From the NCBI RefSeq assembly GCF_055900595.2, contig NZ_CM148325.1: a stretch of DNA of 64,000 nucleotides; one strand, given 5' to 3'. Shown one piece after another: positions 11,631-32,119 of this stretch. The translations under genes were made by a program, and so were the position numbers. Under the pieces are notes generated by a model. It saw nothing but the letters and a program-made list of their open reading frames with translations. It searched no databases and was not told the origin of the DNA. Each line of letters opens with the position of its first letter. Positions within the stretch are counted from its first letter, which is position 1.

Positions 11631-11812
11631 ATCTCCTCCAGGTAAGTCGGGTACGACCTGGCTTACCTCTTTCGCTCTCGTCAGAATTCCATCAAGATTA
11701 ATTGCTAAAAAGCGTGCTAAAGAAAGAAGATCGTTATCGGCGAACGGGCCGATCACTCATGCAGGAAGCATAGATCCTTTGAGCGGAGTTTCTGATATCT
11801 GAGGAGTGCGAA

Positions 11813-12574: not shown

Positions 12575-12617
12575 AGGGCAAAGCGGAAACAGATAAGACT
12601 GGCATAAATCAAGAAGA

Positions 12618-12664
12618 AATGGCGCGCCCTGCAGGATTCGAACCTGCGGCCCACGACTTAGAAG
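12618..12664. repeat. Prophage attachment-site repeat (attR): 47-bp identical copy of the 3' part of argU
   Basis: 12618-12664 is identical to 53560-53606 (3' 45 nt of the argU tRNA plus 2 nt), then diverges; marks the distal prophage boundary. Confidence 0.8.
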
Positions 12665-13086
12665 TTCCTAGAACGACATTTTAAGTCAACAACTTACCGC
12701 GCCATCTCTGCGCTCACACGTCCCACTACCTCAAAACATGTAAAGCCTTGCAAGCCATTGTGAGGCCTTATGTGTCTCAGTTTTGTCCCTCTTTTTTGTA
12801 CTAAAAAACATAGTAATTGAGGATAAACCTCATGCTATTTTCGCTTATATGCCTCTAAAGGCATGGCACTTAAATAGATAAAAGCACCACAAAAGCATAA
12901 AAAACCACACAGTAAAACCGCAATATGAAACAATAACAGATAATTAAACCAAAAACAGATAGCGCATTGTGATAATCATTCAATACTAAACAAAATATAA
13001 ACAGTGGAGCAATATGTAATTGACTCATTAAGTTAGATATAAAAAATACATATTCAATCATTAAAACGATTGAATGGAGAACTTTT

Positions 13087-14040
13087 ATGCGGGCGAAACT
13101 TCTGGGAATATTCCTGACAACCCCTATTGCGATCAGCTCTTTTGCTTCTACCGAGACTTTATCGTTTACTCCTGACAACATAAATGCGGACATTAGTCTT
13201 GGAACTCTGAGCGGAAAAACAAAAGAGCGTGTTTATCTAGCCGAAGAAGGAGGCCGAAAAGTCAGTCAACTCGACTGGAAATTCAATAACGCTGCAATTA
13301 TTAAAGGTGCAATTAATTGGGATTTGATGCCCCAGATATCTATTGGGGCTGCGGGCTGGACTACTCTCGGCAGCCGAGGTGGCAATATGGTCGATCAGGA
13401 CTGGATGGATTCCAGTAACCCCGGAACCTGGACAGATGAAAGTAGGCACCCTGATACACAACTCAATTATGCCAACGAATTTGATCTGAATATAAAAGGC
13501 TGGCTCCTCAACGAACCCAATTACCGCCTGGGACTCATGGCCGGATATCAGGAAAGCCGTTATAGCTTTACAGCCAGAGGTGGTTCCTATATCTACAGTT
13601 CTGAGGAGGGATTCAGAGATGATATCGGCTCCTTCCCGAATGGAGAAAGAGCAATCGGCTACAAACAACGTTTTAAAATGCCCTACATTGGCTTGACTGG
13701 AAGTTATCGTTATGAAGATTTTGAGCTAGGTGGCACATTTAAATACAGCGGCTGGGTGGAAGCATCTGATAACGATGAGCACTATGACCCAGGAAAAAGA
13801 ATCACTTATCGCAGTAAAGTCAAAGACCAAAATTACTATTCTGTTGCAGTCAATGCAGGTTATTACGTAACACCTAACGCAAAAGTTTATGTTGAAGGCG
13901 CATGGAATCGGGTTACGAATAAAAAAGGTAATACTTCACTTTATGATCACAATGATAACACTTCAGACTACAGCAAAAATGGTGCAGGCATAGAAAACTA
14001 TAACTTCATCACTACTGCTGGTCTTAAGTACACATTTTAA
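13087..14040 (+). CDS. ompT: OmpT outer-membrane protease (omptin)
   Basis: 317-aa ORF with signal peptide and omptin family sequence; classical DLP12 b-region cargo. Confidence 0.9.
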   Translation: MRAKLLGIFLTTPIAISSFASTETLSFTPDNINADISLGTLSGKTKERVYLAEEGGRKVSQLDWKFNNAAIIKGAINWDLMPQISIGAAGWTTLGSRGGNMVDQDWMDSSNPGTWTDESRHPDTQLNYANEFDLNIKGWLLNEPNYRLGLMAGYQESRYSFTARGGSYIYSSEEGFRDDIGSFPNGERAIGYKQRFKMPYIGLTGSYRYEDFELGGTFKYSGWVEASDNDEHYDPGKRITYRSKVKDQNYYSVAVNAGYYVTPNAKVYVEGAWNRVTNKKGNTSLYDHNDNTSDYSKNGAGIENYNFITTAGLKYTF

Positions 14041-14289
14041 GAACGCCAACTAAAATTTCCCCGAGGTGAAAATCGCCCCGGGGAATAACTAGCCATTTCA
14101 ATGTAACAATTAACCCTTAAAATAAACCCAGAAGGTTATTAACTAAATCACATAGAAAACCATCAATTATAGTGTGTATAAAATAGCCGACAGCAACCCA
14201 ATTACAAATTAATGGTTCCAGAATATCACATCAAAAAACACGCTGTATAATATTATAATTAACATGTAGACAACTTGTAATAAACATTA

Positions 14290-15039
14290 TCAGTCAATTG
14301 TTTTGTTTATTCCATCTGTGACGCCGATTATTTTCTCAAAATAATGAGATGGCGTGACACCATAATAATCTTTAAATGCACATATGAAATATGAAGTACT
14401 GTTATAGCCACATTTCTGGGCTACGACATTGATAGAATAAGAGTTTGAAGTTATGAGTTTTTTTGCATACCTCATCCTAGTATCTCTCAATATTTCAGTA
14501 AATGACGTTCCTTCATCCCTTAATCTTTTTTTTATTAAACTTTCACTCGTATAAATCAATTCCGCAATATCTTTTAAATGCCATTGCCGCTCAATATTAA
14601 AACTGATTATTCCAGTAATTTTACATGTAAATGTATTTATATTTGTTAGTATAAATGAATTTACACTTTCGCGTTTTTTGAACATGGCAAGTAAGGATAT
14701 ACATAGTCTTTCTTTTAACCAAAGGGAGTGTGAGTCTGCTATTTTAATCCCTTCAAACAGAGAAAAAACAAGCGATAATGGAGGTTCCTCTTCAGCAATA
14801 TAGCCATTCTTATCAAGAGTAAATTTGCCAGGCAACTCATTATTCACGTCGATAAAAAAGGATAAACATGTTTTCTTATCTATATCAACAATTCTTAGTT
14901 TAGAGGGGCATACTGGTAACTCTCTTCTAATTTTGTCGCTTACAATAAACAATGAATTTTTTTTGAACGAGATAACTCTCCTGTTTATAATTAAATCAAA
15001 TGATTGACAGATGAAAACTACGGAGCAAACATAATCCAT
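14290..15039 (-). CDS. appY: AppY AraC-family transcriptional activator
   Basis: 249-aa AT-rich ORF with C-terminal AraC HTH ([26 protein letters not shown]). Confidence 0.85.
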
Positions 15040-15714
15040 CTTGCACCTATCATAAAATTAAAACAAGTTGATAGTAGTCAAATAACAGCCAATTAAATAC
15101 ACAATCATAATCAGGATGATGTGCATTTATATTTTTATACACAAAATTATAGTTTGCAAATTTTAATAAGTTTCATTTAAGATTAAATTATTATATGTAT
15201 ATTGTTTTTTATTCTAACGTATTTCAAAGTTACATTTTTCAACGCTTACTATGCTTTTTATTAACATAAACTCACTACAACGCACCTGAAACCTCTTGCT
15301 ATATATATGTCAACCGTTTGAATTTAAAATAAAAAGAGTATCATTTTTACTTGCATTTCTTATCAAGTCACATTCAACAACAGTAAAAAAACATTATTAG
15401 AACCATTCAATTAACAAAAAACCAACATCCAGCTTGCTTAATTTTTCTTTATTAAACGATATTGAAAATCAATTGATAAAATACATCTAAACAACCTTTT
15501 GGGGCGCAAAAGCATAACATCAAACAAACAAATAACACACCGAAAAAACTCACAATTAATAACCTATGATATACATACTGTTTATTATGGTTGAATAAGC
15601 CACTCGATATCTGGTGCTACGGAAGTGTCCACACGGTTTAGCAGCACCCGATACTTTTTCCAGGCTTCCAGCAACGAGTTTTCTTCCTCCGTTGCATATA
15701 CAGCTCACCTTTTT

Positions 15715-16008
15715 TCACCCACGATTAACCAACAGCCAGACCAGCAGACACGCCACCACCGGCACAGCAAAATCCATCAGGCTTGCCACATCCCATGCAC
15801 GTGTATCAAAACCGCCCCACCACGGCATATTCATTCGCTTGCCATGCCCGAACATTTCGATCCAGCGATATTCTGCCTGGGTGTGTTCACGCGCAATGAA
15901 GAACGTACAACCGGCTATCGCCCCGTAAGCCCAGTTTCCGGTAAAAAGACCAACCAGTACCTGCGCAGCCACAGCACAAAGTGCATGAAGGAAAGGTGTT
16001 ATATCCAT
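15715..16008 (-). CDS. Small hydrophobic membrane protein, function unknown, at the end of the tail-fibre remnant
   Basis: 97-aa ORF with two predicted transmembrane stretches; chosen over the overlapping plus-strand ORF 15625-16170 because of coherent hydrophobic segments and co-orientation with neighbouring phage genes. Confidence 0.4.
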   Translation of the reverse strand: MDITPFLHALCAVAAQVLVGLFTGNWAYGAIAGCTFFIAREHTQAEYRWIEMFGHGKRMNMPWWGGFDTRAWDVASLMDFAVPVVACLLVWLLVNRG

Positions 16009-16018
16009 TATTCCTCCT

Positions 16019-16723
16019 TTATCCGATATCGCTTCGGGAAGTTAATAACAACTTTAATTCTGACTCAAGTTCATCAACTCTTTCAGTCAGCTTCTGGATA
16101 TGGTGAATCAGTGGAACAACCAGACGTTCGTACATTACACCTTCGGCAACAAGGCCATTGCTGGAAATAGCTTCAGGAGCATCATCTTCGTTAGCTGGTC
16201 GCCAGTGTACAAACTGAGGGGCAATTTCTCCTACTTCCTCGGCAATCAATCCGTAGAACCCCCAGTCACGCCTGTCATTTTCGCATTGCGACCTGTACCA
16301 CACAGGGCGCATCCTGAAAATGACATCGGCGTGCTCTGAATCTATCGTCTCTACTGAATGTTTATAGCGGATAGACGATGTGGACCGCAGTACAGACGAA
16401 ATTGCAGGGTCAGGATTAAGATAAAGGTTTGCCGCCGCAGTAGTCGTGCCCAACCCCCATAAATAAAACGCTTCGCGGCCAGTCAGCGGGTAAAAATCAC
16501 CGCCATAACGACCGCTTTCCAGATCGTTCGCTTCCACTTTGTTTTTCAGCTTATTATCAACTTCAGTTTTTGTGTATCTGGTGCTGATATCCTGCTTTGC
16601 ACTGGTCATATCAATCTGAAGCGTTGATACTTTTCCGTTAATTGAGGAAATATCTTCCTTAGTTTTACTGACATCTCCCTTTAGCGTGGTGATATCTCCA
16701 GGAATTACTGTCGATGTAGCCAT
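16019..16723 (-). CDS. Phage tail-fibre C-terminal domain protein (coiled-coil plus putative chaperone-like C-terminus)
   Basis: 234-aa ORF; heptad-rich N-terminal half (TTLKGDVSKTKEDISSINGKVSTLQIDMTSAKQDIS) and C-terminal coiled coil typical of tail-fibre/spike tips. Confidence 0.5.
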   Translation of the reverse strand: MATSTVIPGDITTLKGDVSKTKEDISSINGKVSTLQIDMTSAKQDISTRYTKTEVDNKLKNKVEANDLESGRYGGDFYPLTGREAFYLWGLGTTTAAANLYLNPDPAISSVLRSTSSIRYKHSVETIDSEHADVIFRMRPVWYRSQCENDRRDWGFYGLIAEEVGEIAPQFVHWRPANEDDAPEAISSNGLVAEGVMYERLVVPLIHHIQKLTERVDELESELKLLLTSRSDIG

Positions 16724-16732
16724 TTGTCTCCC

Positions 16733-17014
16733 TCACATCCAGCCACGAAGTTGATGCTCAACAACAACCGCGTATTCATCGAATATTGACGGTGTTTTCA
16801 CATCATTAATGATGCGCACGTTTACAAAATATCCGTCTTCCTTAACACATACCGGCTCGCCATCTTCAGTAATTTCCCCGGTTTCTTTGTACACGTTACC
16901 TATCACATCAATGAGAACATTGTTCTGCATCACCTCGTCATCGTCATAACCAATGCTATCCATAAAGGCCGAAAAGTCGGCCTTGTCTGTGAATTTGATA
17001 ATTAAGTCTCGCAT
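16733..17014 (-). CDS. Hypothetical phage protein
   Basis: 93-aa acidic ORF, start overlaps the upstream tail-fibre-like gene stop (operon-like). Confidence 0.4.
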   Translation of the reverse strand: MRDLIIKFTDKADFSAFMDSIGYDDDEVMQNNVLIDVIGNVYKETGEITEDGEPVCVKEDGYFVNVRIINDVKTPSIFDEYAVVVEHQLRGWM

Positions 17015-18024
17015 TATATTACCTCTCCCATTTGTGCATCGGTTAATTCTTTATGCCATATACGAAAATTACGAATGTGACCGAAAAGATGACGTAGACC
17101 GCTATTAGTCTGTCCCCCAATCCTGAAGAAATAACCAGATTTAACACCGACATGATCCGTGGTTTTAGGAGTCCCATGCTGGGCATTGCTAACGAAATGC
17201 ACATTACCAGATTCATTTAAAACAAATCCAAGAACAGATTTTTGTTCAAATAATACTGGCGATACGGCGGCTACTGTACTACCGTTTTTATTGTGCATCG
17301 TAACACCAGGAAATAATGTTGAACTAATAGCAACACTTATATATTGACCCGGAGTTGTGCTCCCACCACTGGTATCAAAAATTCGTGGTGCTGCATTTGG
17401 CGTTTCGTTCCAGTTTGTATGAACTTCAGCTAGAAATGTTAAAGGTGGTGTACCGATATTGTTATTTGTTGGTATATTCACCATATCACTGGCTCTTGTG
17501 ACTGGCGTTGCCTCAGTAATAATAAACGAAGAAGCGCACGAACCGCCTTCGACCTGAGGAGTTGCAACATAAATATAATCATCTGCACCAGTGCTTCCCC
17601 CTTTTGGTGGTGCATATTGCACCATCGCACCGATCATATTTTCTGTATCAAGTGCCTTAATTGTTGCCTCAAAGAAAATCCATTTGCTTGCTTCATTTTT
17701 AACAGCCCTTGCAGTAATACGACTTGCAGCGCCGCCAGTTTTATCAATCGATAAATCTGTCATATTTAAGTAAGCATCACCCAGGAATTTGTAGGTAGAT
17801 CCATCATATTCTTCAAATCGTAATCGACATCTTAAATTTGGAGTCCCACTTTGTACCCTGCATGAGATAGTTACATACTTTTCATCGCCGGTAACATCAT
17901 ATCCTTTGCTTCCAGATACTGTGACAATAGAAATGGCTGAGGTTTGCCCCACCATTTCTGGTTTTAATGTGAATTTTGCGTACTGGAAACCAAAATCATC
18001 TACACCTGATGTATTTAAAATCAT
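17014..18024 (-). CDS. Phage tail fibre / receptor-binding-like protein, 5' end abutting IS1 (possibly truncated)
   Basis: ORF 17014-18048 begins with a non-ATG start inside IS1; first ATG (MILNTSG) at 18024; Gly/Thr/Ser-rich beta-type sequence with C-terminal motif NFRIWHKELTDAQMGEVI resembling lectin-like tail-fibre tips. Confidence 0.5.
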   Translation of the reverse strand: MILNTSGVDDFGFQYAKFTLKPEMVGQTSAISIVTVSGSKGYDVTGDEKYVTISCRVQSGTPNLRCRLRFEEYDGSTYKFLGDAYLNMTDLSIDKTGGAASRITARAVKNEASKWIFFEATIKALDTENMIGAMVQYAPPKGGSTGADDYIYVATPQVEGGSCASSFIITEATPVTRASDMVNIPTNNNIGTPPLTFLAEVHTNWNETPNAAPRIFDTSGGSTTPGQYISVAISSTLFPGVTMHNKNGSTVAAVSPVLFEQKSVLGFVLNESGNVHFVSNAQHGTPKTTDHVGVKSGYFFRIGGQTNSGLRHLFGHIRNFRIWHKELTDAQMGEVI

Positions 18025-18049
18025 ATTTGATGACGGTAATGACTCCAAC

Positions 18050-18553
18050 TTATTGATAGTGTTTTATGTTCAGATAATGCCCGATGACTTTGTCATGCAG
18101 CTCCACCGATTTTGAGAACGACAGCGACTTCCGTCCCAGCCGTGCCAGGTGCTGCCTCAGATTCAGGTTATGCCGCTCAATTCGCTGCGTATATCGCTTG
18201 CTGATTACGTGCAGCTTTCCCTTCAGGCGGGATTCATACAGCGGCCAGCCATCCGTCATCCATATCACCACGTCAAAGGGTGACAGCAGGCTCATAAGAC
18301 GCCCCAGCGTCGCCATAGTGCGTTCACCGAATACGTGCGCAACAACCGTCTTCCGGAGCCTGTCATACGCGTAAAACAGCCAGCGCTGGCGCGATTTAGC
18401 CCCGACATAGCCCCACTGTTCGTCCATTTCCGCACAGACGATGACGTCACTGCCCGGCTGTATGCGCGAGGTTACCGACTGCGGCCTGAGTTTTTTAAGT
18501 GACGTAAAATCGTGTTGAGGCCAACGCCCATAATGCGGGCAGTTGCCCGGCAT
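18050..18553 (-). CDS. insB: IS1 transposase InsB
   Basis: 167-aa ORF identical in character to IS1 InsB ([25 protein letters not shown]...). Confidence 0.95.
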
Positions 18554-18747
18554 CCAACGCCATTCATGGCCATATCAATGATTTTCTGGTGCGTACCGGG
18601 TTGAGAAGCGGTGTAAGTGAACTGCAGTTGCCATGTTTTACGGCAGTGAGAGCAGAGATAGCGCTGATGTCCGGCGGTGCTTTTGCCGTTACGCACCACC
18701 CCGTCAGTAGCTGAACAGGAGGGACAGCTGATAGAAACAGAAGCCAC
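18472..18747 (-). CDS. insA: IS1 protein InsA
   Basis: 91-aa [43 protein letters not shown]..., classic InsA with zinc finger. Confidence 0.95.
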
Positions 18748-18797
18748 TGGAGCACCTCAAAAACACCATCATACACTAAATCAGTAAGTTGGCAGCA

Positions 18798-19430
18798 TCA
18801 CCCATTACCGCCCATAATGATGATATTAGTGACGCCCTCACTAAATTCTGCGTAGCTCTCAATATCATCATTTGGATCAAAAGTTTCTTTATCCTTACCT
18901 GACCACTCAGCACCGCCAGACTGAGTGATGATATTTTGTGGTTTAATATTCCAGTCCAGCTCATAACGTTCAATACCATCGCCCTCAATGATATTTTTCC
19001 CCGTTGTGATTGCCTGAACGGCAAGCCATTCAATACGTGCACGAATAGCTTTAGCCTGATTTACAATCGCCTGTTTAACTTTAATATTACGCGCTCCAAA
19101 AGCATTGTATTGCTCAGGTGATACACCAGCAGGGCGCACAGCTAACTTATTTGGATCAATGCTGCTTTTCGGCTTCATATAGCCTGGACGAATTGTTTTT
19201 GATTCGAACCCTTCGTCACGTGAAACTTTACTACCCACCATAGGAGAACAAAACGCTGCAATTGGGATATTTGGATCGTCGATTGTATCAAGAATAATAT
19301 CGCGCGATTCAAACATTACCGAGCGAGTAAAAAACAAACTGGTAAACAACGCATTTAGTTGTTTTTGTACATCTACAGCATTAACCACCTGTACAAGCTG
19401 AGTAGGCGAATATAAATCAACCATACGCAT
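18798..19430 (-). pseudogene. Divergent lambda-E-family major capsid protein gene, 3' end truncated by IS1
   Basis: From Met at about 19430 the translation aligns with lambda gpE (FFTRSVMFESRD..., PGYMKPK, NIITQSGGAEWSGKDKETFDPNDDIESYA) and terminates at the IS1 junction after NIII, roughly half the length of gpE. Confidence 0.65.
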
Positions 19431-19640
19431 CCTCTTTGCATTCATTAAAAATAATTGTGGATATATGCTATCACCGATATTTGTCATGCGAACACATGCA
19501 ACCGAGTGCAATGTTGTATAAAGTTTTGGGGTGACAACTTCAGTGCGGACAATTAGTGTTAATATCTTCACTCCCTTTGGTCGGGATTTATGTAGCATGC
19601 CGGAAAATTTATTTTTTCTGGCTTTTTTTATTGGCAATAT

Positions 19641-20090
19641 TTAAAACGGGATATCATCTCCCCATTGCTCATTATCTCCCACTGGTGGCTGGCTTCCTTG
19701 CTGATCTGCCTGTTGTTTTGCTCTGTTCAGTGCGTCAGTAGCCTGCCCCTGTTGGCCTTTATTGCCGCCCGGTCGCACCGATCGCGCACTGATTACGCTG
19801 TCTGCGATAACCTGCCAGCCCTGCCGCGTTTCGCCGTTCTGTCCAGTCCACTGGCTCATCTGCATGTTACCCGCCACGCTCAGGAGTTCGCCTTTGTGAT
19901 GCTTTGCCAGCGCGTCGGCTTGTCTGCCAAACGCCAGGACAGATAACCACATCGTCGCCTGACCGTCATCCGACTGACTGCAGGGCAGTGATACCGCCAT
20001 ACGCGCCAGCGTCATGGGGGTGCCCTTGCTGGTCTGTTTTGTCTGCGGGTCGTCCACCAACCGCCCGTAAACTGATATTTGCGCCGTCAT
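19641..20090 (-). CDS. ssb: Single-stranded DNA-binding protein (SSB), phage/plasmid type
   Basis: 149-aa ORF with OB-fold-like N-terminus, Gly/Gln-rich linker and acidic C-terminal tail ending DDIPF. Confidence 0.8.
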   Translation of the reverse strand: MTAQISVYGRLVDDPQTKQTSKGTPMTLARMAVSLPCSQSDDGQATMWLSVLAFGRQADALAKHHKGELLSVAGNMQMSQWTGQNGETRQGWQVIADSVISARSVRPGGNKGQQGQATDALNRAKQQADQQGSQPPVGDNEQWGDDIPF

Positions 20091-20332
20091 GCTGCCTGCT
20101 CTCCGGACTTAATATTGATTGTTGTCACTTCCTCCGCTTCAGCAATCTCCCGTTCGGTCAGAGTGGCAAAGTTTGCAGCCGCCGTTGTCATGAATGCGCT
20201 AATCAGTTCGGGATGTGCTTTCGCGTATCCTTCCCCGGCGTTGCGGTCGATGATTTTTATCGACACCCTTAACCAGTGTTCCGTCAAATCAAGGGCGTGC
20301 GATTGTGATTTTTTTGTGTGCTTCGCTGTCAT
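20087..20332 (-). CDS. Hypothetical protein upstream of ssb
   Basis: 81-aa ORF overlapping the ssb start by 4 nt. Confidence 0.4.
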   Translation of the reverse strand: MTAKHTKKSQSHALDLTEHWLRVSIKIIDRNAGEGYAKAHPELISAFMTTAAANFATLTEREIAEAEEVTTINIKSGEQAA

Positions 20333-20384
20333 AGGCTTTATCTCACAGCAGTAAATTAAAATTTTTGCGTTTTAACCCTTCACC

Positions 20385-20605
20385 TGTTCACCTTTTGATA
20401 TTTTCTCTTTTAATTCATAATGTTAATGGGTGAACAGTTTCACAAAAACTATTCACCAACTGTTCACCACTGTTCACCCTTGAAGCTCAATAAACAATCA
20501 AAAAGGTGAACAGTGAATAGTTTGGTGAACAGTTCATAAATAACTGTTCACCCTATAATATACTGATATAAAAGATATTTATGACAGGGTGAACAGTGGT
20601 GAACA
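20385..20605. repeat. P4-type replication origin/crr-like iteron cluster (TGTTCACC octamers)
   Basis: Nine copies of TGTTCACC / GGTGAACA in both orientations (20385, 20429, 20461, 20471, 20505, 20524, 20545, 20588, 20598) with an AT-rich stretch, immediately 3' of the primase gene. Confidence 0.75.
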
Positions 20606-20619
20606 GTTATTCCATAAGT

Positions 20620-22440
20620 TTAATTTTTGCTATCGTCATTAGTGACCGATACACATGATGGCATCCAGTCTTCTGATTCCTCCGTCAGTGTCACGTTTGA
20701 ACGCAAACCGTGCTTCGTTTTCCGTTTCATATACTCCCTGCCATATTCCGCCATTGCCCCCGGCATATCTTTACCGAAGCGCGTCAGTGTTACAGGTTTA
20801 CCAAACCCATGTGCCCTCATATAAGCCAGATAGGCATGATAGAGATACCTGCGTGGGCTAAATGGCACAATTTCAGCATTACCCACTAACAGGCCATCAC
20901 ACATTACCGATGCCATGAGATAGCCGCAGAAGTCCACCAGCGAATCCCCCTCTCGCTTTATCGCCAGTGCTTCTTCAGATTTCTGCTGCTCATATAACAG
21001 GCGTCTGGCTTCGTCCTGATCATCAAACCGTGTAAGCAGATGACGAATCACTACCGCCAGCTCACCTTCTATTTTTTCCGCCAGCATCGAATCGCGTTCG
21101 TTCTCCGGTACAACTTCCGAAAAATTGAATATCACCCGACGACGTGAGATCCCCCCGCTGCGGTCACTGAATGACATGGCGTTATTGTTAACCGCCAGCA
21201 CTACTGCCGGAATACGCGTTGAATAGGGGGCTTTGTGTTTCGGGTCAATTGCCACCTTGTCACCGCCTGTAATGGCCTTAATCCCTGCCCCATCACCAGC
21301 GTAGCGGGTCATATCCGGCATGATAATCAGCGAAAAGCCAACCACTAACGCACGTTCCCTTGCATCTTCCAGCGCCTTCATGCTTGCTGATACTGTATTA
21401 GCCTTACCCGCCAGCATGGTGCAAATCTCCGCCATCACACTTTTACCACTTCCCCCCGGCCCTGTTACCTCAATGAATAACTGCCAGTCGTACCGGTTCG
21501 CCAGCACCATGAATAATGCCGCCAGTACGCGATCTGCCTTGCGGTCATTCTCAGCCACCGAACGGCGCAACCACTTCCAGAAATTCGGCGCATGTGTTGC
21601 CAGCGTTTCCCCCTCTGCTGGTGGGCTGAAAGGTAATTCACTGGCAATTAACAACCAGTCGTTTTTGTTATGCTCCCGAAAATTACCTGTTCTGGTATCA
21701 AATACCCCGTTACTGAATCCAATCAGGTTACGGGCTGTATTCCCCATTACAGGCAAACTTAACTTCATGGTATCTACCGCCGATTTAATGGCGTTCTGCG
21801 AATAGCTGATCTCCACATCAATGAAAATCTGCGCCATAGCACGCTGTAACTCTTTATCCTGAACCGGCTCCCATACAACGCCGTTGTAATGATGAACGGT
21901 GTCAGAGTCGGCATTGATTGCCAGTTCGCCGCCGTAATGTGCCAGGAGAACTTCACCGCGCTGGCTGGCCCCCATCTGATTCAACGCCAAAGATGAAGCA
22001 CGCTCGTCATTTTTGCGCTCTGCCTTCTTCACTGGCAGTTCAATCACCAGACTTTCCCCATGCTCCGCTTCAGCTTTTAGGCCGACAAGGCGCGGAGTCC
22101 AGTCTTCAGGCTCTCGATCAACAAAGCTACGGTAACAACGTGCTTCCTTTACGCCTGCAATAGCAAGTAATGTCGCAACCTTCGTCAGATTTTTCTCTGC
22201 GATCTTTCCGGCACGATAAACACGCACATAATGACGGCCTTCATCGATAATTTGCATATCATCCAGGTTTTCCAGTTGTTCCGTACCCAGAATTACTGGT
22301 GGTGTATCATCTGCTGCAATATGCTTACCCGCCCATTCATTCCATTCTTTTGCATGGCTCCAGGCATCACTGCCAGCAAAAATGATGACTTCTGTCATTT
22401 TGTCGCGCGGTTGGTATTTTAAGTTCGGAGCACGTTTCAT
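20620..22440 (-). CDS. P4-alpha-family primase/helicase (phage/plasmid primase, P-loop NTPase)
   Basis: 606-aa ORF with Walker A GPGGSGKS and primase C-terminal-type sequence; adjacent to TGTTCACC iterons. Confidence 0.8.
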   Translation of the reverse strand: MKRAPNLKYQPRDKMTEVIIFAGSDAWSHAKEWNEWAGKHIAADDTPPVILGTEQLENLDDMQIIDEGRHYVRVYRAGKIAEKNLTKVATLLAIAGVKEARCYRSFVDREPEDWTPRLVGLKAEAEHGESLVIELPVKKAERKNDERASSLALNQMGASQRGEVLLAHYGGELAINADSDTVHHYNGVVWEPVQDKELQRAMAQIFIDVEISYSQNAIKSAVDTMKLSLPVMGNTARNLIGFSNGVFDTRTGNFREHNKNDWLLIASELPFSPPAEGETLATHAPNFWKWLRRSVAENDRKADRVLAALFMVLANRYDWQLFIEVTGPGGSGKSVMAEICTMLAGKANTVSASMKALEDARERALVVGFSLIIMPDMTRYAGDGAGIKAITGGDKVAIDPKHKAPYSTRIPAVVLAVNNNAMSFSDRSGGISRRRVIFNFSEVVPENERDSMLAEKIEGELAVVIRHLLTRFDDQDEARRLLYEQQKSEEALAIKREGDSLVDFCGYLMASVMCDGLLVGNAEIVPFSPRRYLYHAYLAYMRAHGFGKPVTLTRFGKDMPGAMAEYGREYMKRKTKHGLRSNVTLTEESEDWMPSCVSVTNDDSKN

Positions 22441-22724
22441 TTGTTACCTCCGGCAACTAACATTGCCCGAATTTTGCGGATATAGCCTGCGGCACGCCTC
22501 TGATTATCTGTCTTGCAATTTTTTACCAGAATGAAATCTCTTTCGAACTGCTGACGCGGCATAACACATTCAAAATCATAACCATCACGCAAATAAGAGA
22601 CACGACGATCATCAACCGAAATAATCTTTACCCGATAGCCATAGCTGTCTTTGAAAATATCCCCAAGGCTGATTTTTGAATGAGTTTGACCGCTGGCAAT
22701 AAAGCCAGAAAATTTATTTTTCAT
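22437..22724 (-). CDS. Hypothetical protein of the P4-like module
   Basis: 95-aa ORF overlapping the primase start (operon-like). Confidence 0.45.
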   Translation of the reverse strand: MKNKFSGFIASGQTHSKISLGDIFKDSYGYRVKIISVDDRRVSYLRDGYDFECVMPRQQFERDFILVKNCKTDNQRRAAGYIRKIRAMLVAGGNK

Positions 22725-22727
22725 TTT

Positions 22728-22952
22728 TTATTCTCCGGTATAGCTCTGGTCGTGTATTTTTATAGCTTCATCCAGCTCTTTGATGACAGGATCAAGTAAC
22801 GTAATTAACGCTCCAGCTAAATTAGCATCCCGTTCATCGTGTTCCGCATTTGTTGTCCCATCAAGCCAGGTTGATAAGATTTCTCGCATATTTTTGCCAC
22901 AAACGAGCGCGTTTTCAGCATGTGTCAGCACTTTAAAATAAAGATCATTCAT
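22728..22952 (-). CDS. Hypothetical protein of the P4-like module
   Basis: 74-aa acidic ORF in tandem with downstream genes. Confidence 0.4.
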   Translation of the reverse strand: MNDLYFKVLTHAENALVCGKNMREILSTWLDGTTNAEHDERDANLAGALITLLDPVIKELDEAIKIHDQSYTGE

Positions 22953-23259
22953 GGCACACCTCCTGACGAATACGGGCGGCGAATATCATCACGTAGCCAG
23001 TTGGGGATTGCAGCCGGGCTTCCTGTTCGCTGGCGGCCTCGATGGTAATCACGCGCGGTTGTGCCGTACTCAGGGCGATAAAACGCCAGATGTATTTATT
23101 CAGGTTGTGCGGGTCCCGCCCTTGCGGGTGTGTGGTATGATTTCTCATAGCTACCTCGATACTGTTGCTATCGTTGGTGGTTAGAAGCCCGTTGGTGTTC
23201 CTAGCACCTTCGGGCTTTGCTTTTTTAAGTGCCTCCGTGTTAAGGTGGTCACCTAACAA
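22945..23259 (-). CDS. Hypothetical protein of the P4-like module (true start probably the internal Met at 23148)
   Basis: 104-aa ORF; 5' part overlaps an opposite-strand ORF, so a shorter 67-aa product from 23148 is more plausible. Confidence 0.35.
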   Translation of the reverse strand: MLGDHLNTEALKKAKPEGARNTNGLLTTNDSNSIEVAMRNHTTHPQGRDPHNLNKYIWRFIALSTAQPRVITIEAASEQEARLQSPTGYVMIFAARIRQEVCHE

Positions 23260-23479
23260 TGAAAAGGCTAATTCAATAGGTGGTCACTTGTCAACGATCA
23301 AACGCGATAAAAGTCCTAAGGGTGATGGGCAATCTCCACAATTCAGAATGCGAATTTCTCCAGAGCTAAAAGAGCAATTCGACAAAGAAGCGCAGAGCGA
23401 CGGCATAAGCCTAGCCAACTGGCTTAAAGAATTAGGGCGCAAAGAGCTGCTACGGCGCGGTATTGAACCAAAAGGATAA
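23165..23479 (+). CDS. Putative ribbon-helix-helix DNA-binding protein (true start probably internal)
   Basis: C-terminal 45 residues (QFRMRISPELKEQFDKEAQSDGISLANWLKELGRKELL) fit an Arc/CopG-type RHH pattern; two GGTGGTCAC direct repeats lie just upstream of the likely start. Confidence 0.45.
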   Translation: MLSLVVRSPLVFLAPSGFAFLSASVLRWSPNNEKANSIGGHLSTIKRDKSPKGDGQSPQFRMRISPELKEQFDKEAQSDGISLANWLKELGRKELLRRGIEPKG

Positions 23480-23506
23480 GAATAATTGAAGTCAAGGAGC
23501 TAACAC

Positions 23507-23863
23507 ATGAAATACGAATTCTTCGCAACAAGTAGCAGTAGTTTGGATGTATACATAGTCACTGTATCAAACGATTCTGGCTCTCTAATCATGACTTGTA
23601 ATTGTCCAGCAGGAAGTAAAGGTATTCTATGTAGACACCGTAAAGCTTTAATTACCGGAAAAATCCGCGGTATATTCACTCCCCCAAGAAGGAATAATCC
23701 CGAAAAATTACAAGAAGCTATAAATTTAATAGCCACATATGGCATAGATAAAACATTAAAGTTGTACACTGATGAGTTAGAACGAGCAGAACAGACTTGG
23801 ATAAGTGTTCGCGATAATTTGAGAGCAATGATAAACGCTCTTGTTGAACCACCTAAATATTGA
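23507..23863 (+). CDS. Small SWIM-zinc-finger-like protein (cargo gene)
   Basis: 118-aa AT-rich ORF with CxC-x8-CxH motif (CNCPAGSKGILCRH); followed by a hairpin terminator. Confidence 0.55.
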   Translation: MKYEFFATSSSSLDVYIVTVSNDSGSLIMTCNCPAGSKGILCRHRKALITGKIRGIFTPPRRNNPEKLQEAINLIATYGIDKTLKLYTDELERAEQTWISVRDNLRAMINALVEPPKY

Positions 23864-23929
23864 ACTGTTCACATTGCCTATCAGGCGATAACCTCGTATT
23901 CTGATTAAGGCTAACTATATACTCACATT

Positions 23930-23955
23930 GGCGACCAATTCTGGTCGCCTTTATC
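23930..23955. terminator. Hairpin between two convergent cargo genes (likely bidirectional intrinsic terminator)
   Basis: GGCGACC-aattct-GGTCGCC stem-loop followed by TTTATC; sits between the convergent 118-aa and 284-aa genes. Confidence 0.55.
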
Positions 23956-23994
23956 TACCATTTTTATAATATCATAGATTAAGAGTGTTAATCC

Positions 23995-24849
23995 TTACCC
24001 CCTGAATGGAATTGATGAGGATTTAATTTCCACAGAACCAAATCCTCTTGAATCCAAAAACATTTTTATACCAGCCTCAATAAAATCATAATCGCTTGTC
24101 GGGCCAATTGTAATGCTTTTAATTGGTAACTTTCTATTATCTTTATTATTAATAATGATATAAGGGATGATACCATTATTATTTATTCTAAATTTCACAT
24201 CTGGCATTTGTATCCACGGAGTAAACACCAGTCTAAATTCATTTTCTTCGATAAAACTAGGATGTTTAAAAAATGGGATATATTTAGATATAAATTGATA
24301 CGTAGAGACCATTGTTACAAAATGATCATTCATTTCTTTAATGTTAATACCATTACAAGAAAAAAACTCATCCAACTCCTTACTCATCTTTGTAATATCG
24401 TCATTATTTGAATATATAACATCATGTGCAACACAATTTAAATAAATATTTTGACAAAAACTCACAAGTTCATCCGCATCAAATTCAATGCAAACGCCCT
24501 GTTTATTTCCGTAACCTCTCCACTGACTTAACTTATCGTTTTCTTTACAAAAAGATATGCTATAAACATGTTTATCAATCCCTTTTTCTTTTTGTAACTT
24601 CCCTTTCTCATACATGTCAAGAGACTTGAGCAAAATAGTTTTCTTATCTTTTGGGATGATATTATCATCAACTATTTTAATTGTATTTCGAAAACATTCA
24701 CATCCATGGTTAGACTCCTCTTTATCATTTAAGAAATATATATTTGTAGCCCATAAAGAATTAGAGTCTAATATACCTTTCAAACCAAAAAGATCTGTAT
24801 AATGAAATATAGCCACAATGCCCCACCTAATAGTTAAGTCGTTTCCCAC
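23995..24849 (-). CDS. DUF2971-like protein (candidate anti-phage cargo gene)
   Basis: 284-aa very AT-rich ORF; motifs FHYTDLFGLKGIL, YFLNDKEE, SISFC...LSQWRGYGN..GVCIEFD resemble my recollection of DUF2971; overlaps the alpA stop (co-transcribed). Confidence 0.5.
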   Translation of the reverse strand: MGNDLTIRWGIVAIFHYTDLFGLKGILDSNSLWATNIYFLNDKEESNHGCECFRNTIKIVDDNIIPKDKKTILLKSLDMYEKGKLQKEKGIDKHVYSISFCKENDKLSQWRGYGNKQGVCIEFDADELVSFCQNIYLNCVAHDVIYSNNDDITKMSKELDEFFSCNGINIKEMNDHFVTMVSTYQFISKYIPFFKHPSFIEENEFRLVFTPWIQMPDVKFRINNNGIIPYIIINNKDNRKLPIKSITIGPTSDYDFIEAGIKMFLDSRGFGSVEIKSSSIPFRG

Positions 24850-25064
24850 TCACCTCGAATCCATGCCTGCACTTCTGAAAGACGATATGCAACAGCAGTG
24901 GAACCAATCTTGATCCGCTTAGGAAATTTTCCTTCCTTCTCCAGCTTCCAGCGTGTGCTGTTCGCAAGAGTGGTTAGCTCCCGACATTCTTTCTCACGGA
25001 TCATACGATCGATGTTAGGAATGTACTCCAGACCCTTTTTATCAACAATTGCCATTTTTTTCAT
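24834..25064 (-). CDS. alpA: AlpA-family phage transcriptional regulator/excisionase-like HTH protein
   Basis: 76-aa ORF directly downstream of the integrase, sequence pattern (ELTTLANSTRWKLEKEGKFPKRIKIGSTAVAYRLSEVQAWI) typical of AlpA. Confidence 0.8.
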   Translation of the reverse strand: MKKMAIVDKKGLEYIPNIDRMIREKECRELTTLANSTRWKLEKEGKFPKRIKIGSTAVAYRLSEVQAWIRGEWETT

Positions 25065-25065
25065 G

Positions 25066-26352
25066 TTAACCAGCCTTTTGTTTGAGGATTGTCACTTTTG
25101 AATCAGCACCTGCGATGCTATTGAGATATGTAGTCCAGAGTTCCAGAGCATCCAGTTTTTTAGCCATAAACTTACTCCGGTTGTAAACACCCGCCACGCC
25201 AGGTAGCGCATGGCCTAACAGTTGTTCTACTACATAAAATTCAACACCGAGATCACTTAGATGAGTAGATAGCGTTCTTCTAAGGTCGTGTAGTGACCAT
25301 TGTTTTTCATGGCCCAAACGTTTACCGATTTTCCCCCCAATCTTGCTTACGCTTTCTCTAATTCGCAGACTTCCCAGCACATAACCAGTATGTTTTGTCT
25401 CTTCGTGAACATCCGTTACCCACTGTCGTAGAATTTCAGGTACTGGTCTGACGATTTCAACACCAGTTTTTGAGTGATCTTTTGGTACCGTCCAAACCCA
25501 ACTTTCGAGATCCCATTCGCTCCATTCAGATAATCGGGCTTCACTCATTCGACATCCAAATACTGTACAAAGCACAAACATTTTTCGCGTGTATTCAGAC
25601 ATTAGTTTTAAATCAGGCTCGACAAAAATTGCCTTCCAGAGCTGGCCGAGTTCGGCTTCATCCAGAACCCGATCCCGCTTACCTGCAATCTGCCCCACAT
25701 CACTCATGCGCAAATCCTTTAAAGCATCACACGTCGCGTACTGGCGTACCCGACAAAAACGAAGAGCTAATTTAGTGTCAGAAAAAACATACGCCGCCAT
25801 AACTGGTGCATTACGTTTAATTCGGTCAAAACAGTCCAGCCATTCATATAGGTGAGTGTCATTTACGGGCAAATGACCGATATAGGGAAAGATATGCTTT
25901 CGAAATCTGCCAAGCGTTACAGCATGAGTTTTACGACGCACCTTACAGTAATTTTCATACCAGTAATTTAGTGCATCCTCCACTGTGACCGGCTTTAAGC
26001 GTTCTTCAGCCTGAATCTTAATCTGGATACGCGGATCACGTTTGTCAGCCAACCAACCACGGCACTCGTCGCGCTTTTCCCTTGCCTGTTTGAGTGACAT
26101 ATCAGGATATTTACCCAACGTTAGCCAGACCGGAGCAGCCCGGCCACCTGCTAACCTGTAGAAGAAAACAAAGCTCACAGCCCCTTTAGTACTCACACGA
26201 ATAGAAAGCCCCTTTCCATCAGCAATGGTGATCTGCTTTTCTCTGGGTTTCCCCAGATATCCTTTAAGCGCTTTGTCGCTCAGTTTGTTCTCGCCAGCCA
26301 TTTTTAGCCCCAAAAAGCAATACAAGCTGCAATACAGAGATGATTGCAACAC
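25066..26352 (-). CDS. Tyrosine recombinase/integrase (P4-type)
   Basis: 428-aa ORF with C-terminal catalytic region containing HDLRRT and LLGHA...Y motifs; int-alpA arrangement typical of P4-like islands. Confidence 0.85.
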   Translation of the reverse strand: MLQSSLYCSLYCFLGLKMAGENKLSDKALKGYLGKPREKQITIADGKGLSIRVSTKGAVSFVFFYRLAGGRAAPVWLTLGKYPDMSLKQAREKRDECRGWLADKRDPRIQIKIQAEERLKPVTVEDALNYWYENYCKVRRKTHAVTLGRFRKHIFPYIGHLPVNDTHLYEWLDCFDRIKRNAPVMAAYVFSDTKLALRFCRVRQYATCDALKDLRMSDVGQIAGKRDRVLDEAELGQLWKAIFVEPDLKLMSEYTRKMFVLCTVFGCRMSEARLSEWSEWDLESWVWTVPKDHSKTGVEIVRPVPEILRQWVTDVHEETKHTGYVLGSLRIRESVSKIGGKIGKRLGHEKQWSLHDLRRTLSTHLSDLGVEFYVVEQLLGHALPGVAGVYNRSKFMAKKLDALELWTTYLNSIAGADSKVTILKQKAG

Positions 26353-26433
26353 ACAGATAACGAGGAAAATTCAGTGAAAGCACCAGATAAACTTATTCTT
26401 TATTATCAAAAGATTAAGTGTAAAAACCAGCAA

Positions 26434-26709
26434 CTACACGAAAGCCTCAGAAAGCCATGCTAAGTGCTTGGGTTTGACATAACCCGGCGTAAATTCAGAG
26501 GTGGAGCCGCCACGGGATCGGATAACCTCACCGGAAACAATCGGCGAAACGTACAGCGCCATGTTTACCAGTCCCGGAATTTGTGAGAGATAGACTTTTT
26601 CCGTGGTGAAAGGATAGGTTTCACGGAAAAACAGGCGCAGAAACAGCGGATCGAACTTAAAGTGATGCTGGGTCGATGCCAGTAATTCTGCAGTTGTATA
26701 TACAGACAT
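26434..26709 (-). pseudogene. E: Lambda major capsid protein E, N-terminal ~80 codons only (truncated)
   Basis: MSVYTTAELLASTQHHFKFDPLFLRLFFRETYPFTTEKVYLSQIPGLVNMALYVSPIVSGEVIRSRGGSTSEFTPGYVKPKH is near-identical to lambda gpE N-terminus, then diverges and stops. Confidence 0.85.
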
Positions 26710-26764
26710 AAATTATTTCCATAAAAAAAGCCGCACAGGCGGCCTTTGTTGATGAAGGGGAAGA

Positions 26765-27097
26765 TTAAACGATGCTGATTGCCGTTCCGGCAAACGCGGT
26801 CCGTTTTTTAGTCTCGTCGCTGGCAGCCTCCGGCCAGAGCACATCCTCATAACGGAACGAGCCGGACTTGTAGAACGTCAGTGTGGTGCTGGTCTGGTCA
26901 GCAGCAACCGCCAGAATGCCAACGGCTGCACCGTCGGTGGTGCCATCCCACACAACCAGCTTACGGGTAGTGCCATCCAGCATCAGCGGGGTCATTGCAG
27001 GCGTTTTCGCACTCAATCCGCCAGGCGCAATTGCTGTATGAGCCGGATCACTGTTACCCAGCGGCTGGTAATGGTTAAACTCTTCTTTTGTCGCCAT
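26765..27097 (-). CDS. D: Head decoration protein D
   Basis: 110-aa ORF closely matching lambda gpD ([14 protein letters not shown]...FAGTAISIV). Confidence 0.9.
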
Positions 27098-27106
27098 AAC
27101 TGCCTC

Positions 27107-28418: not shown

Positions 28419-28438
<20 letters not shown>
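27107..28438 (-). CDS. C: Head maturation protease/scaffold C (S49 family; Nu3 nested)
   Basis: ORF 27107-28552; start placed at the codon giving VTAELRNLPHIASMAFNEPL as in lambda gpC; overlaps portal gene end. Confidence 0.85.

Positions 28439-32119
<3,681 letters not shown>

What the first reader, a model, noticed from the sequence alone, without database searches (positions are those of the whole stretch)
16019..18024. Tail-fibre genes persist although all tail-shaft and baseplate genes are gone
Two tail-fibre-type ORFs (coiled-coil plus lectin-like tip) remain adjacent to IS1, while no tape-measure, tube or J-like genes are present in the prophage. Retained fibre tips without a tail may be inert debris, or a reservoir for host-range recombination with incoming phages.
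Basis: inference. Interest (0 to 1): 0.25.

Follow-up and report, generated by a model that had tools for sequence, protein, structure and literature searches.

The report
Leftover side-tail-fibre genes after IS1 deletion
These are the last 3 kb of a lambda-like prophage's side-tail-fibre module, left behind when a roughly 18-kb deletion with an IS1 element at its joint removed the tail genes, and this is ordinary prophage decay.

Summary
The window carries an argU/DLP12-site lambdoid prophage, about 15.05-53.6 kb. IS1 (18035-18802) is directly flanked by fibre-type ORFs, and no tail-shaft, tape-measure, tube or J genes are present.

The "344-aa ORF" is not a gene. It is the C-terminal 338 residues of a 796-aa lambda-Stf-type lateral tail fibre. 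The N-terminal tail anchor and the shaft are gone, and its first codons lie inside IS1. Downstream lie three intact ORFs:
- orf93;
- orf234, with an N-terminal helix and a Peptidase_S74 chaperone domain;
- orf97.

Intact relatives carry the order E-FI-FII-Z-U-V-G-T-H-M-L-K-I-J-lom-stf-orf93-orf234-orf97, with 99.7% DNA identity over the cassette. These include strain TCM3e1 and the isolated phage IdasGreatGrand.

IS1 has no 9-bp target duplication and joins two loci that lie about 18 kb apart in relatives. This points to an IS1-associated deletion. The fibre end survives because it lies beyond the deletion endpoint, and the event is too recent for decay.

A reservoir role is known in principle (lambda with Rac/Qin stf). 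Here it is weakened because the upstream homology arm is deleted.

Verdict: ordinary and already known, low interest. A satellite-like element integrated in the prophage capsid gene is the more unusual thing nearby.

The parts
15585..15695 (-). Tail-fibre-assembly (tfa/tfaX-like) gene fragment at the prophage right end, next to appY
   Evidence: RefSeq annotation of the 100%-identical segment in L001, 'tail fiber assembly protein, missing N-terminus'. Window 15040-15695 is 98.9% identical to the K-12 DLP12 right end.
15715..16008 (-). orf97: intact small hydrophobic protein of unknown function, last gene of the fibre cassette in lambdoid phages
   Evidence: ORF list. phrog_1443 at 1.7e-58, unknown function. 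No Pfam or NCBIfam hit. Present after orf234 in L002, L003 and phage IdasGreatGrand.
16019..16723 (-). orf234: intact short fibre-type protein with an N-terminal long helix (coiled-coil candidate) and a C-terminal Peptidase_S74 / intramolecular-chaperone domain. It is either a mini-fibre subunit or a lateral-fibre chaperone.
   Evidence: Pfam PF13884 at 27.3 bits against cut-off 22, residues 116-172. phrog_3299 at 7.9e-140 and phrog_454 'tail fiber' at 3e-32. PDB 8hqz L-shaped tail fibre at 5.7e-8. AF2 model has helices 10-47 and 52-60 plus a C-terminal alpha/beta domain, and its best fold hits are the MyRF ICA domain and 3gw6 'intramolecular chaperone'. S116 is nearly invariant and K121 invariant among 32 homologues. 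A 56%-identical homologue in phage PeterMerian is annotated 'putative lateral tail fiber chaperone'.
16733..17014 (-). orf93: intact small protein of unknown function that travels with the fibre tip and orf234
   Evidence: ORF list. phrog_1361 at 2e-43, unknown function. Co-linear with stf and orf234 in lambdoid prophages and in T1-like phages.
17014..18034 (-). stf': 3' remnant (C-terminal 338 of 796 codons) of a lambda-Stf-type lateral tail-fibre gene, encoding two beta-sandwich, lectin-like domains. It lacks the start codon, the N-terminal tail-attachment domain and the Ala-rich shaft.
   Evidence: The full-length 796-aa ORF in L003 is co-linear from '...KSSNMILNT' onward. phrog_1419 positions 455-793 of 793. 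NF048003 and Laminin_G_3 hits. The N-terminal residues 5-97 of the full-length protein match PDB 9e7m 'tail fiber protein' at 7e-49 and are absent here. The AF2 model is confident only for residues 1-160, and its fold hits are lectin, LamG, galectin, CBM and phage baseplate-fibre proteins at low TM.
18035..18802 (-). IS1 (768 bp, insA 18472-18747, insB' 18050-18553) sitting at the deletion joint, without a target-site duplication
   Evidence: Sequence and inverted-repeat ends. The flanks are TTTGATGAC and CATTACCGC, which do not match. Control copies show 9-bp duplications: CTTATTACT in L008 and TACCACCCA in L005.
18803..19424 (-). 5' part (about 207 codons) of the capsid (lambda-E-like) gene of a satellite-like integrative element, cut at its 3' end by IS1. 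This is the other edge of the deletion.
   Evidence: Pfam Phage_cap_E at 1.3e-20. Co-linear with the uninterrupted 347-codon gene in L002 at 19582-20622.
19641..26464 (-). Remainder of the satellite-like element: SSB, D5/P4-alpha-type primase, DUF2971 protein and tyrosine integrase. It is inserted in the prophage capsid gene E.
   Evidence: Pfam hits. 98.2% identity to L002 20001-34402 with its annotation. Junction analysis.
26464..26709 (-). First 82 codons of the prophage's own major capsid gene E. The rest of E, together with FI through stf codon ~458, is deleted.
   Evidence: tblastn with L003 E residues 1-82 at 100% identity. D (26768-27097) and C (27110-28438) are also 100%.

Best explanation
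The segment 15.6-18.0 kb is the distal end of the late operon of a lambda-like prophage integrated at argU (the DLP12 site). It is what remained after one deletion of about 18 kb with IS1 at the joint.

The ancestor had the usual order: ...C-D-E (with a satellite-like element inserted in E)-FI-FII-Z-U-V-G-T-H-M-L-K-I-J-lom-stf-orf93-orf234-orf97. IS1 inserted either in the satellite's capsid gene or in stf. Then either an IS1-mediated adjacent deletion occurred, or two IS1 copies recombined. Everything between the two points was lost: the satellite's right arm, most of E, all head-completion, tail-shaft, tape-measure, tip and J genes, lom, and the first ~458 codons of stf.

What is left is a promoterless, start-less 3' half of the side-fibre gene plus three small intact ORFs that belong to the same fibre module. 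They survive only because they lie beyond the deletion endpoint, between IS1 and appY/ompT, and because the event is very recent. Without a tail, an anchor domain or a capsid they cannot contribute to any particle made by this prophage.

Shown here: the gene identities, the missing genes, the co-linearity with intact relatives, and the absence of a target duplication. Inferred: the order of events and the lack of current function.
For: - Flanking matches. Window 1-18034 is 99.98% identical to strain Z0117EC0005, and the match stops exactly at IS1. Window 18803-33216 is 98.2% identical to a T-HYM1 prophage, starting exactly at the other IS1 end.
- Distance in intact relatives. The two flanks are separated there by about 14.7 kb of phage DNA (L003 20306-34971) plus about 3.3 kb of satellite DNA (L002 16723-20000). 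That stretch contains every tail gene.
- Tail genes absent. None of 14 tail or head-completion proteins gives a tblastn hit in the window, while C and D are 100% identical to L003.
- IS1 lacks the 9-bp duplication that simple insertions show.
- The 344-aa ORF equals residues ~459-796 of a 796-aa fibre, and the N-terminal anchor (PDB 9e7m match) is missing.
- The same cassette sits after J-lom in the isolated phage IdasGreatGrand at 97.5% identity.
- Recency. The cassette has 0 differences from L001 and 6 in 2305 nt from L003.
- No excess of promoter-like sites (11 found against 12.0 expected) and none upstream of stf'.
- Other strains show independent decays at the same site: a nu1'-stf' fusion in L001 and nu1-J'-stf-IS1-orf93' in L004.
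- At least five draft assemblies have contigs ending at window positions 18024-18028, within 10 nt of this junction. This is consistent with a repeat element at that spot in several isolates.
Against: - No precursor was found. No complete RefSeq E. coli genome (5,426) and no GTDB species representative carries either IS1 junction of the window. A simple IS1 insertion at one of the two sites was never seen, so the order of events is inferred.
- The only IS1 found in a related satellite capsid gene (O121, L005) is 3 bp away. It is therefore an independent insertion, not the precursor.
- Lack of function is inferred from anatomy only. Expression was not measured, and Q-antiterminated late transcription could still read through IS1 into the three intact ORFs.
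- The draft contigs stop 6-10 nt short of the IS1 boundary and do not show what lies on the other side.
Confidence: 0.85

Rival explanations
1. Recombination reservoir. The remnant is maintained, or at least matters, because incoming lambdoid or T1-like phages can copy the fibre tip with orf93 and orf234 by homologous recombination and so change their primary-receptor specificity.
For: - Lambda acquires DNA from the stf/tfa remnants of Rac and Qin and from DLP12 in K-12 by RecA- and Red-beta-dependent recombination (PMC3945230).
- The same module occurs in viable temperate phages (IdasGreatGrand 97.5%, PhiR49_1 85%). It also occurs at about 65-79% nt identity in virulent T1-like phages (tuinn, tunus, SECphi27, swan01), so it does move between phage lineages.
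- Lateral-fibre loci are the most variable part of small siphoviruses (PMC8594841).
Against: - The upstream homology arm (stf 5' half, lom, J) is deleted.
- Against other alleles, high identity exists only downstream: 91% with L002 over 16004-17094 and 97.5% with L004 over 15600-16906. Across the tip-coding 17095-18034 identity is 66% or less, with no exact match longer than 16 nt. A double crossover that transfers this tip to a different-allele phage therefore lacks one arm.
- Phages with the same allele gain nothing from the exchange.
- No recombinant was observed, and there is no sign of selection because the sequences are near-identical.
Confidence: 0.1
2. Domesticated function. The intact ORFs (orf234 mini-fibre, orf93, the membrane-like orf97), or a truncated Stf' product, are expressed by the host and protect it. 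One possible route is masking a surface receptor, as reported for the chimeric cryptic-prophage fibre protein StfE2. Another is acting as a moron at the prophage end.
For: - Cryptic-prophage fibre proteins can block adsorption: PinQ-driven inversion in e14 produces StfE2, which inhibits T2 adsorption (PMC12529663).
- orf93, orf234 and orf97 are intact in several independently decayed DLP12-site prophages (window, L001; orf234 and orf97 in L004).
- They lie at the prophage end, where lysogenic-conversion genes commonly sit (own knowledge).
Against: - The sample is biased, because these relatives were found by searching with the cassette itself.
- K-12-type DLP12 lacks the cassette altogether and shares only window 15040-15695.
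- No promoter signal above chance.
- There is no invertase or invertible segment here.
- The ORFs are identical to those in intact phages, so intactness is explained by youth.
- The Stf' remnant has no start codon of its own.
Confidence: 0.04
3. Assembly artefact. The genome really carries two IS1 copies, one in stf and one in the satellite capsid gene, with the tail genes between them. The assembler collapsed them into one copy.
For: - Neither junction is found in any complete RefSeq E. coli genome.
- IS1 is a multi-copy repeat and a typical cause of collapsed joins.
- The draft assemblies only show contig ends near the stf side.
Against: - No tail-gene sequence exists anywhere in the 64-kb window.
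- A true IS1 x IS1 recombination would give the identical sequence and is common in E. coli.
- Closely related strains have independently lost the same genes, so loss is plausible.
Confidence: 0.04

Closest known systems
Fibre-gene remnants of E. coli K-12 cryptic prophages (DLP12 tfaD/tfaX, Rac stfR-tfaR, Qin stfQ-tfaQ, e14 stfE-tfaE)
   Same: These are also tail-less defective lambdoid prophages that still carry side-tail-fibre or assembly genes at the end next to the host junction. The site is the same (argU/DLP12, next to appY-ompT), and window 15040-15695 is 98.9% identical to K-12. Such remnants recombine with incoming lambda (PMC3945230).
   Different: The module is different: a LamG-type tip with orf93, an S74 mini-fibre and orf97, instead of stf/tfa with or without an invertase. 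The prophage is much younger, with head, lysis, replication and immunity genes still present. The deletion is marked by IS1.
Bacteriophage lambda side tail fibre Stf (with Tfa)
   Same: The full-length relative (796 aa, L003) has the lambda-Stf N-terminal attachment domain, matching PDB 9e7m 'tail fiber protein' at 7e-49. It also has Pfam PF08400 in homologues, and its gene follows J and lom.
   Different: The window copy lacks that N-terminal domain and the shaft. The tip is a GTA-spike-fibre-like plus LamG-like pair rather than the lambda/T4 gp37-type tip. The accessory genes are orf93 and orf234, not tfa.
Lateral tail-fibre loci of small virulent siphoviruses (Drexlerviridae and relatives; BASEL collection)
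   Same: The fibre tip, orf93 and orf234 are shared at about 65-79% nt identity with T1-like phages. KurtStettler's 'lateral tail fiber protein' is 67% identical to stf'. PeterMerian's 'putative lateral tail fiber chaperone' is 56% identical to orf234. These fibres are thought to bind surface glycans as primary receptors (PMC8594841).
   Different: Those are functional genes in complete virions. Here the module is decapitated and has no tail to sit on.
T5/DT57C-type L-shaped tail fibres and endosialidase tailspikes with a C-terminal intramolecular chaperone (Peptidase_S74 / ICA) domain
   Same: The C-terminal half of orf234 matches PF13884 and 8hqz residues 952-1068. Its model matches the MyRF ICA domain and 3gw6. 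A conserved Ser116...Lys121 pair is present.
   Different: orf234 is only 234 aa, so after the predicted self-cleavage only about 115 residues, mostly one long helix, would remain. Cleavage was not tested.
PinQ/StfE2 adsorption block from cryptic prophage e14
   Same: It is a fibre-derived protein from a tail-less cryptic prophage that acts for the host (PMC12529663).
   Different: That system needs an invertase and an invertible P segment to create the chimeric gene. Nothing comparable is present at 15.0-18.8 kb.

Membership tests
Lambda-type side (lateral) tail fibre, Stf | N-terminal tail-attachment domain (Pfam PF08400; as in PDB 9e7m) | tested here: not met
   It is present at residues 5-97 of the full-length 796-aa relative, E = 7e-49. 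The window ORF starts at about residue 459, so the domain is deleted.
Lambda-type side (lateral) tail fibre, Stf | C-terminal part homologous to phage lateral/side fibre proteins | tested here: met
   phrog_1419 'tail protein' at 7e-126, positions 455-793 of 793. 67% identity to the KurtStettler lateral tail fibre protein.
Lambda-type side (lateral) tail fibre, Stf | Gene located after J and lom at the end of the tail operon | tested here: not met
   This holds in L002, L003 and IdasGreatGrand. In the window J and lom are absent and IS1 precedes the remnant.
Lambda-type side (lateral) tail fibre, Stf | Lectin-like (ConA/LamG) receptor-binding tip | tested here: inconclusive
   Laminin_G_3 scores 24.5 bits, below the 27.6 cut-off, although PF13385 is precomputed for several homologues. 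The AF2 model has pLDDT below 50 over most of residues 165-339. Fold hits to LamG, galectin and CBM proteins come only at TM 0.36 or less.
Lambda-type side (lateral) tail fibre, Stf | Binds a cell-surface receptor and speeds adsorption | not testable with these tools
   This needs adsorption assays with a phage carrying the full-length gene.
Peptidase_S74 / intramolecular chaperone auto-processing (ICA) domain proteins | Match to the PF13884 domain above the curated threshold | tested here: met
   orf234 residues 116-172 score 27.3 bits against a cut-off of 22.
Peptidase_S74 / intramolecular chaperone auto-processing (ICA) domain proteins | Conserved Ser...Lys catalytic pair at the cleavage site (own knowledge of endosialidase Ser911/Lys916) | tested here: met
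   K121 is invariant and S116/S117 are nearly invariant in 32 homologues down to 30% identity.
Peptidase_S74 / intramolecular chaperone auto-processing (ICA) domain proteins | ICA fold | tested here: met
   The best PDB fold hits are the MyRF ICA domain (prob 1.00, TMt 0.56, 26% identity) and 3gw6 'intramolecular chaperone'. The model is of only moderate quality, mean pLDDT 63.
Peptidase_S74 / intramolecular chaperone auto-processing (ICA) domain proteins | Autoproteolytic release of the C-terminal domain after trimerisation | not testable with these tools
   This needs expression followed by SDS-PAGE or mass spectrometry.
IS1 simple insertion | 768-bp element with terminal inverted repeats and insA/insB' | tested here: met
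   Located at 18035-18802, with ends GGTAATGACTCCAAC... and ...GTTGGCAGCATCACC, and insA and insB' ORFs.
IS1 simple insertion | 9-bp direct target duplication on both sides | tested here: not met
   The flanks are TTTGATGAC and CATTACCGC. Controls carry duplications. The element therefore sits at a deletion or recombination joint.
Defective (cryptic) lambdoid prophage at argU (DLP12 site) | Integrase next to tRNA-Arg on one side and appY-ompT on the other | tested here: met
   The intD homologue is at 52383-53546 and the flanks are co-linear with annotated L001 and L006.
Defective (cryptic) lambdoid prophage at argU (DLP12 site) | Loss of genes essential for virion formation | tested here: met
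   All tail genes are absent. The phage E gene is reduced to 82 codons and the satellite capsid gene is truncated.

The most novel reading that the evidence does not exclude
Tail genes were lost independently, several times, at the DLP12 site with orf234 and orf97 kept intact (and orf93, except in FDAARGOS_1250 where IS1 cuts it): in the window, in the Z0117EC0005 group and in FDAARGOS_1250. The novel reading is that this reflects selection. The self-cleaving mini-fibre orf234, with orf93 and the membrane-like orf97, would be a host-retained module. It might mask a surface glycan or porin against lateral-fibre-dependent phages, a constitutive analogue of StfE2.
Probability: 0.04. Interest if true: 0.5.

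Novelty: already known. Interest (0 to 1): 0.1.

Why it matters
It matters little on its own. It is a clean example of how IS elements strip a young prophage of its morphogenesis genes, and of why fibre genes at the operon end are so often the last structural genes left in cryptic prophages.

It is useful for annotation: the 344-aa ORF should be called a pseudogene, and orf234 a fibre or chaperone protein. It is also a caution that 'retained' genes in a near-identical, recently deleted prophage are not evidence of selection.

If the remnant did donate its tip to incoming phages, it would add one more case to a phenomenon already shown experimentally in K-12.

Tried and rejected
- Precursor or identical junction. 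I searched for both IS1 junctions in 5,426 complete E. coli genomes and for the stf-side junction in GTDB species representatives. No hit. The O121 IS1 in a related satellite capsid gene is 3 bp off and has its own duplication, so it is not the precursor.
- Apparent 22-29-nt extension of IS1 matches into the stf flank in other genomes. Checked on two loci, it is chance similarity of AT-rich IS1 targets.
- Own promoters or terminators around the cassette. Counts are at shuffle expectation.
- Structure prediction to confirm the 'lectin-like tip'. Only the first beta-sandwich (residues 1-160) modelled well. The LamG part stayed at low confidence and the fold hits are weak.
- Selection test by dN/dS. 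Rejected as uninformative, because there are 0-6 differences to the nearest relatives, and relatives were ascertained with the cassette as query.
- Exact-protein look-up of the truncated ORF. The 344-aa TTG form is absent. The 336-aa form exists only as contig-end partial genes in drafts, which supports a repeat at that site but does not show the far side.
- Two literature searches for a satellite that integrates in a prophage capsid gene found nothing specific.
Full report
**1. What is at the coordinates**

On the minus strand the window holds these features in order:

| Feature | Coordinates |
|---|---|
| appY | 14290-15039 |
| tail-fibre-assembly gene fragment | 15585-15695 |
| orf97 | 15715-16008 |
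| orf234 | 16019-16723 |
| orf93 | 16733-17014 |
| 344-codon ORF | 17014-18048 |
| IS1 (768 bp) | 18035-18802 |

The TTG start and the first 14 nt of the 344-codon ORF lie inside IS1. So the ORFs and the IS1 adjacency are real.

**2. Are they fibre genes?**

Yes, both are.

The 344-aa product:
- It matches phrog_1419 'tail protein' over profile positions 455-793 of 793, E = 7e-126.
- It matches the NCBIfam 'phage head spike fiber' domain above threshold.
- It matches Pfam Laminin_G_3 just below threshold.
- It is 67% identical to the annotated lateral tail fibre of phage KurtStettler.

In strain TCM3e1 the same gene is a 796-codon ORF. The window copy begins at about residue 459. Residues 5-97 of the full-length protein match the solved lambda-type 'tail fiber protein' N-terminal domain, PDB 9e7m, at 7e-49. 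That anchor and the long Ala-rich shaft are missing here.

An AlphaFold model was confident for residues 1-160, a beta-sandwich, but poor for the LamG-like part. The fold hits were phage baseplate-fibre, laminin-G, galectin and CBM proteins, all weak. 'Lectin-like tip' is therefore plausible but not proven.

orf234:
- It has a Peptidase_S74 domain above threshold.
- It matches the C-terminal ends of long tail fibres in PHROGs and the L-shaped tail fibre 8hqz.
- Its model shows an N-terminal 38-residue helix and a C-terminal domain whose best fold matches are intramolecular-chaperone (ICA) domains.
- K121 is invariant and S116 nearly invariant among homologues. This fits the Ser-Lys self-cleavage pair of this family (own knowledge).
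- A 56%-identical protein in phage PeterMerian is annotated 'putative lateral tail fiber chaperone'.

**3. Are the tail genes really gone?**

The window is an argU (DLP12-site) lambdoid prophage running from about 15.05 kb to the integrase at 52383-53546.

The head proteins C and D are 100% identical to those of an intact prophage in TCM3e1 (L003). I ran tblastn with that prophage's FI, FII, Z, U, V, G, T, H, M, L, K, I, J and Lom. None gave a hit anywhere in the window. The segments not covered by annotated relatives contain only an IS10-like transposase, a porin, and Bro/antirepressor-type and nin-region genes.

**4. Why they are gone**

- Left of IS1, the window is 99.98% identical to strain Z0117EC0005 up to base 18034.
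- Right of IS1, it is 98.2% identical to a T-HYM1 prophage from base 18803.
- In T-HYM1 and TCM3e1 these two points are separated by the right arm of a satellite-like element, the rest of capsid gene E, FI through J, lom and the 5' 458 codons of stf. That is about 3.3 kb plus 14.7 kb.
- IS1 has no 9-bp target duplication: its flanks are TTTGATGAC and CATTACCGC. Ordinary IS1 insertions examined as controls do have one.

This is the signature of an IS1-mediated adjacent deletion, or of recombination between two IS1 copies. The fibre end survives because it lies outside the deleted interval.

No precursor and no identical junction exists in 5,426 complete genomes or in GTDB representatives. Five or more draft assemblies have contigs that stop at window positions 18024-18028, carrying the same truncated gene as a contig-end partial. 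That fits a repeat element at this spot in several isolates.

**5. Debris, reservoir or function?**

The cassette has no differences from Z0117EC0005 and 6 in 2305 nt from the intact TCM3e1 prophage. The deletion is therefore recent, and intact small ORFs carry no information about selection. Promoter-like sites are at chance level.

Related strains show other, independent decays of the same prophage: a nu1'-stf' fusion in Z0117EC0005 and nu1-J'-stf-IS1-orf93' in FDAARGOS_1250. I found these by searching with the cassette, so their retention of it is ascertainment, not evidence. K-12's DLP12 shares only 15040-15695.

Recombination of incoming lambda with stf/tfa remnants of Rac and Qin is experimentally documented (PMC3945230). 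The module is also clearly mobile:
- It occurs in the isolated temperate phage IdasGreatGrand at 97.5% identity, after J-lom.
- It occurs at about 65-79% identity in virulent T1-like phages.

Here, however, the upstream homology arm has been deleted. Other alleles share high identity only downstream of the tip. This remnant is therefore a poor donor for a tip swap.

A host-protective role like StfE2 (PMC12529663) cannot be excluded, but nothing supports it.

**6. Comparison and verdict**

This is the familiar state of cryptic lambdoid prophages (K-12 DLP12, Rac, Qin and e14 all keep fibre or assembly-gene fragments). The differences are a different fibre module and an unusually clear IS1 scar.

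Membership:
- The remnant is homologous to Stf-type lateral fibres but fails the defining N-terminal anchor and operon-context features.
- orf234 meets the sequence, motif and fold features of S74/ICA proteins. Self-cleavage is untested.

Novelty: already known. Interest is low.

The more unusual feature nearby is the integrative, satellite-like element that splits the prophage's capsid gene and brings its own capsid gene. It is recorded under things noticed in passing.

Noticed in passing
window 18803-26464 (complete copy: L002 16723-27663): A roughly 10.9-kb integrative, satellite-like element sits inside the prophage's major capsid gene E, after codon ~82. It is flanked in T-HYM1 by a 10-bp direct repeat, TGCTTCGGCT. 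It encodes a tyrosine integrase, an HTH protein, a DUF2971 protein, an Icd-like protein, a D5/P4-alpha-type primase, an SSB, and its own lambda-E-like capsid protein (35% identical to the phage's E). In complete copies it also has a gpD-like decoration protein; a relative in O121 additionally has a small terminase. Eight complete E. coli genomes carry at least 80% of window 17500-27500. Two quick literature searches found no description of a satellite that targets a helper's capsid gene.
   Followed up: partly
window 16087-18034, versus phage records: The fibre tip, orf93 and orf234 module is shared at about 65-79% nucleotide identity between temperate lambdoid phages and virulent T1-like Drexlerviridae (tuinn, tunus, SECphi27, swan01, XY3). 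orf97 is not part of the shared block.
   Followed up: partly
L005 20001-20768 (E. coli O121) versus window 18803: There is an independent IS1 insertion in the related satellite's capsid gene, only 3 bp from the window's IS1 end and in the same orientation, with its own 9-bp duplication TACCACCCA. This may be a local IS1 hot spot.
   Followed up: partly
L001 22318-24191 and L004 13734-17865: Other strains show independent decay of the same DLP12-site prophage. In Z0117EC0005 and ten other genomes a deletion fuses the small-terminase gene to stf codon ~133. In FDAARGOS_1250 a deletion runs from nu1 into J, and an IS1 lies between stf and orf93.
   Followed up: partly
window 35843-37151: A 1.3-kb IS10/IS4-family element (402-aa DDE transposase, ORF 35930-37138) is inserted at the 5' end of the prophage porin (nmpC/ompC-like) gene, between Q and the lysis genes. 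The remaining porin ORF is 37135-38112.
   Followed up: partly
window 46913-48378: The prophage immunity region carries a protein-kinase-domain gene (46913-47638) followed by a PP2C-family Ser/Thr phosphatase gene (47635-48378). The assignment is by annotation transfer from strain R1.
   Followed up: no
window 40359-43459: A 3.1-kb nin-region segment differs from the K-12-type ybcM-ybcL-ybcK-emrE block. It holds a Bro-N/P22 antirepressor-C protein (41561-42169) and, on the opposite strand, a 115-aa ORF (42918-43265) matching the integron-cassette protein family VCH_CASS14 at 5.7e-20.
   Followed up: no
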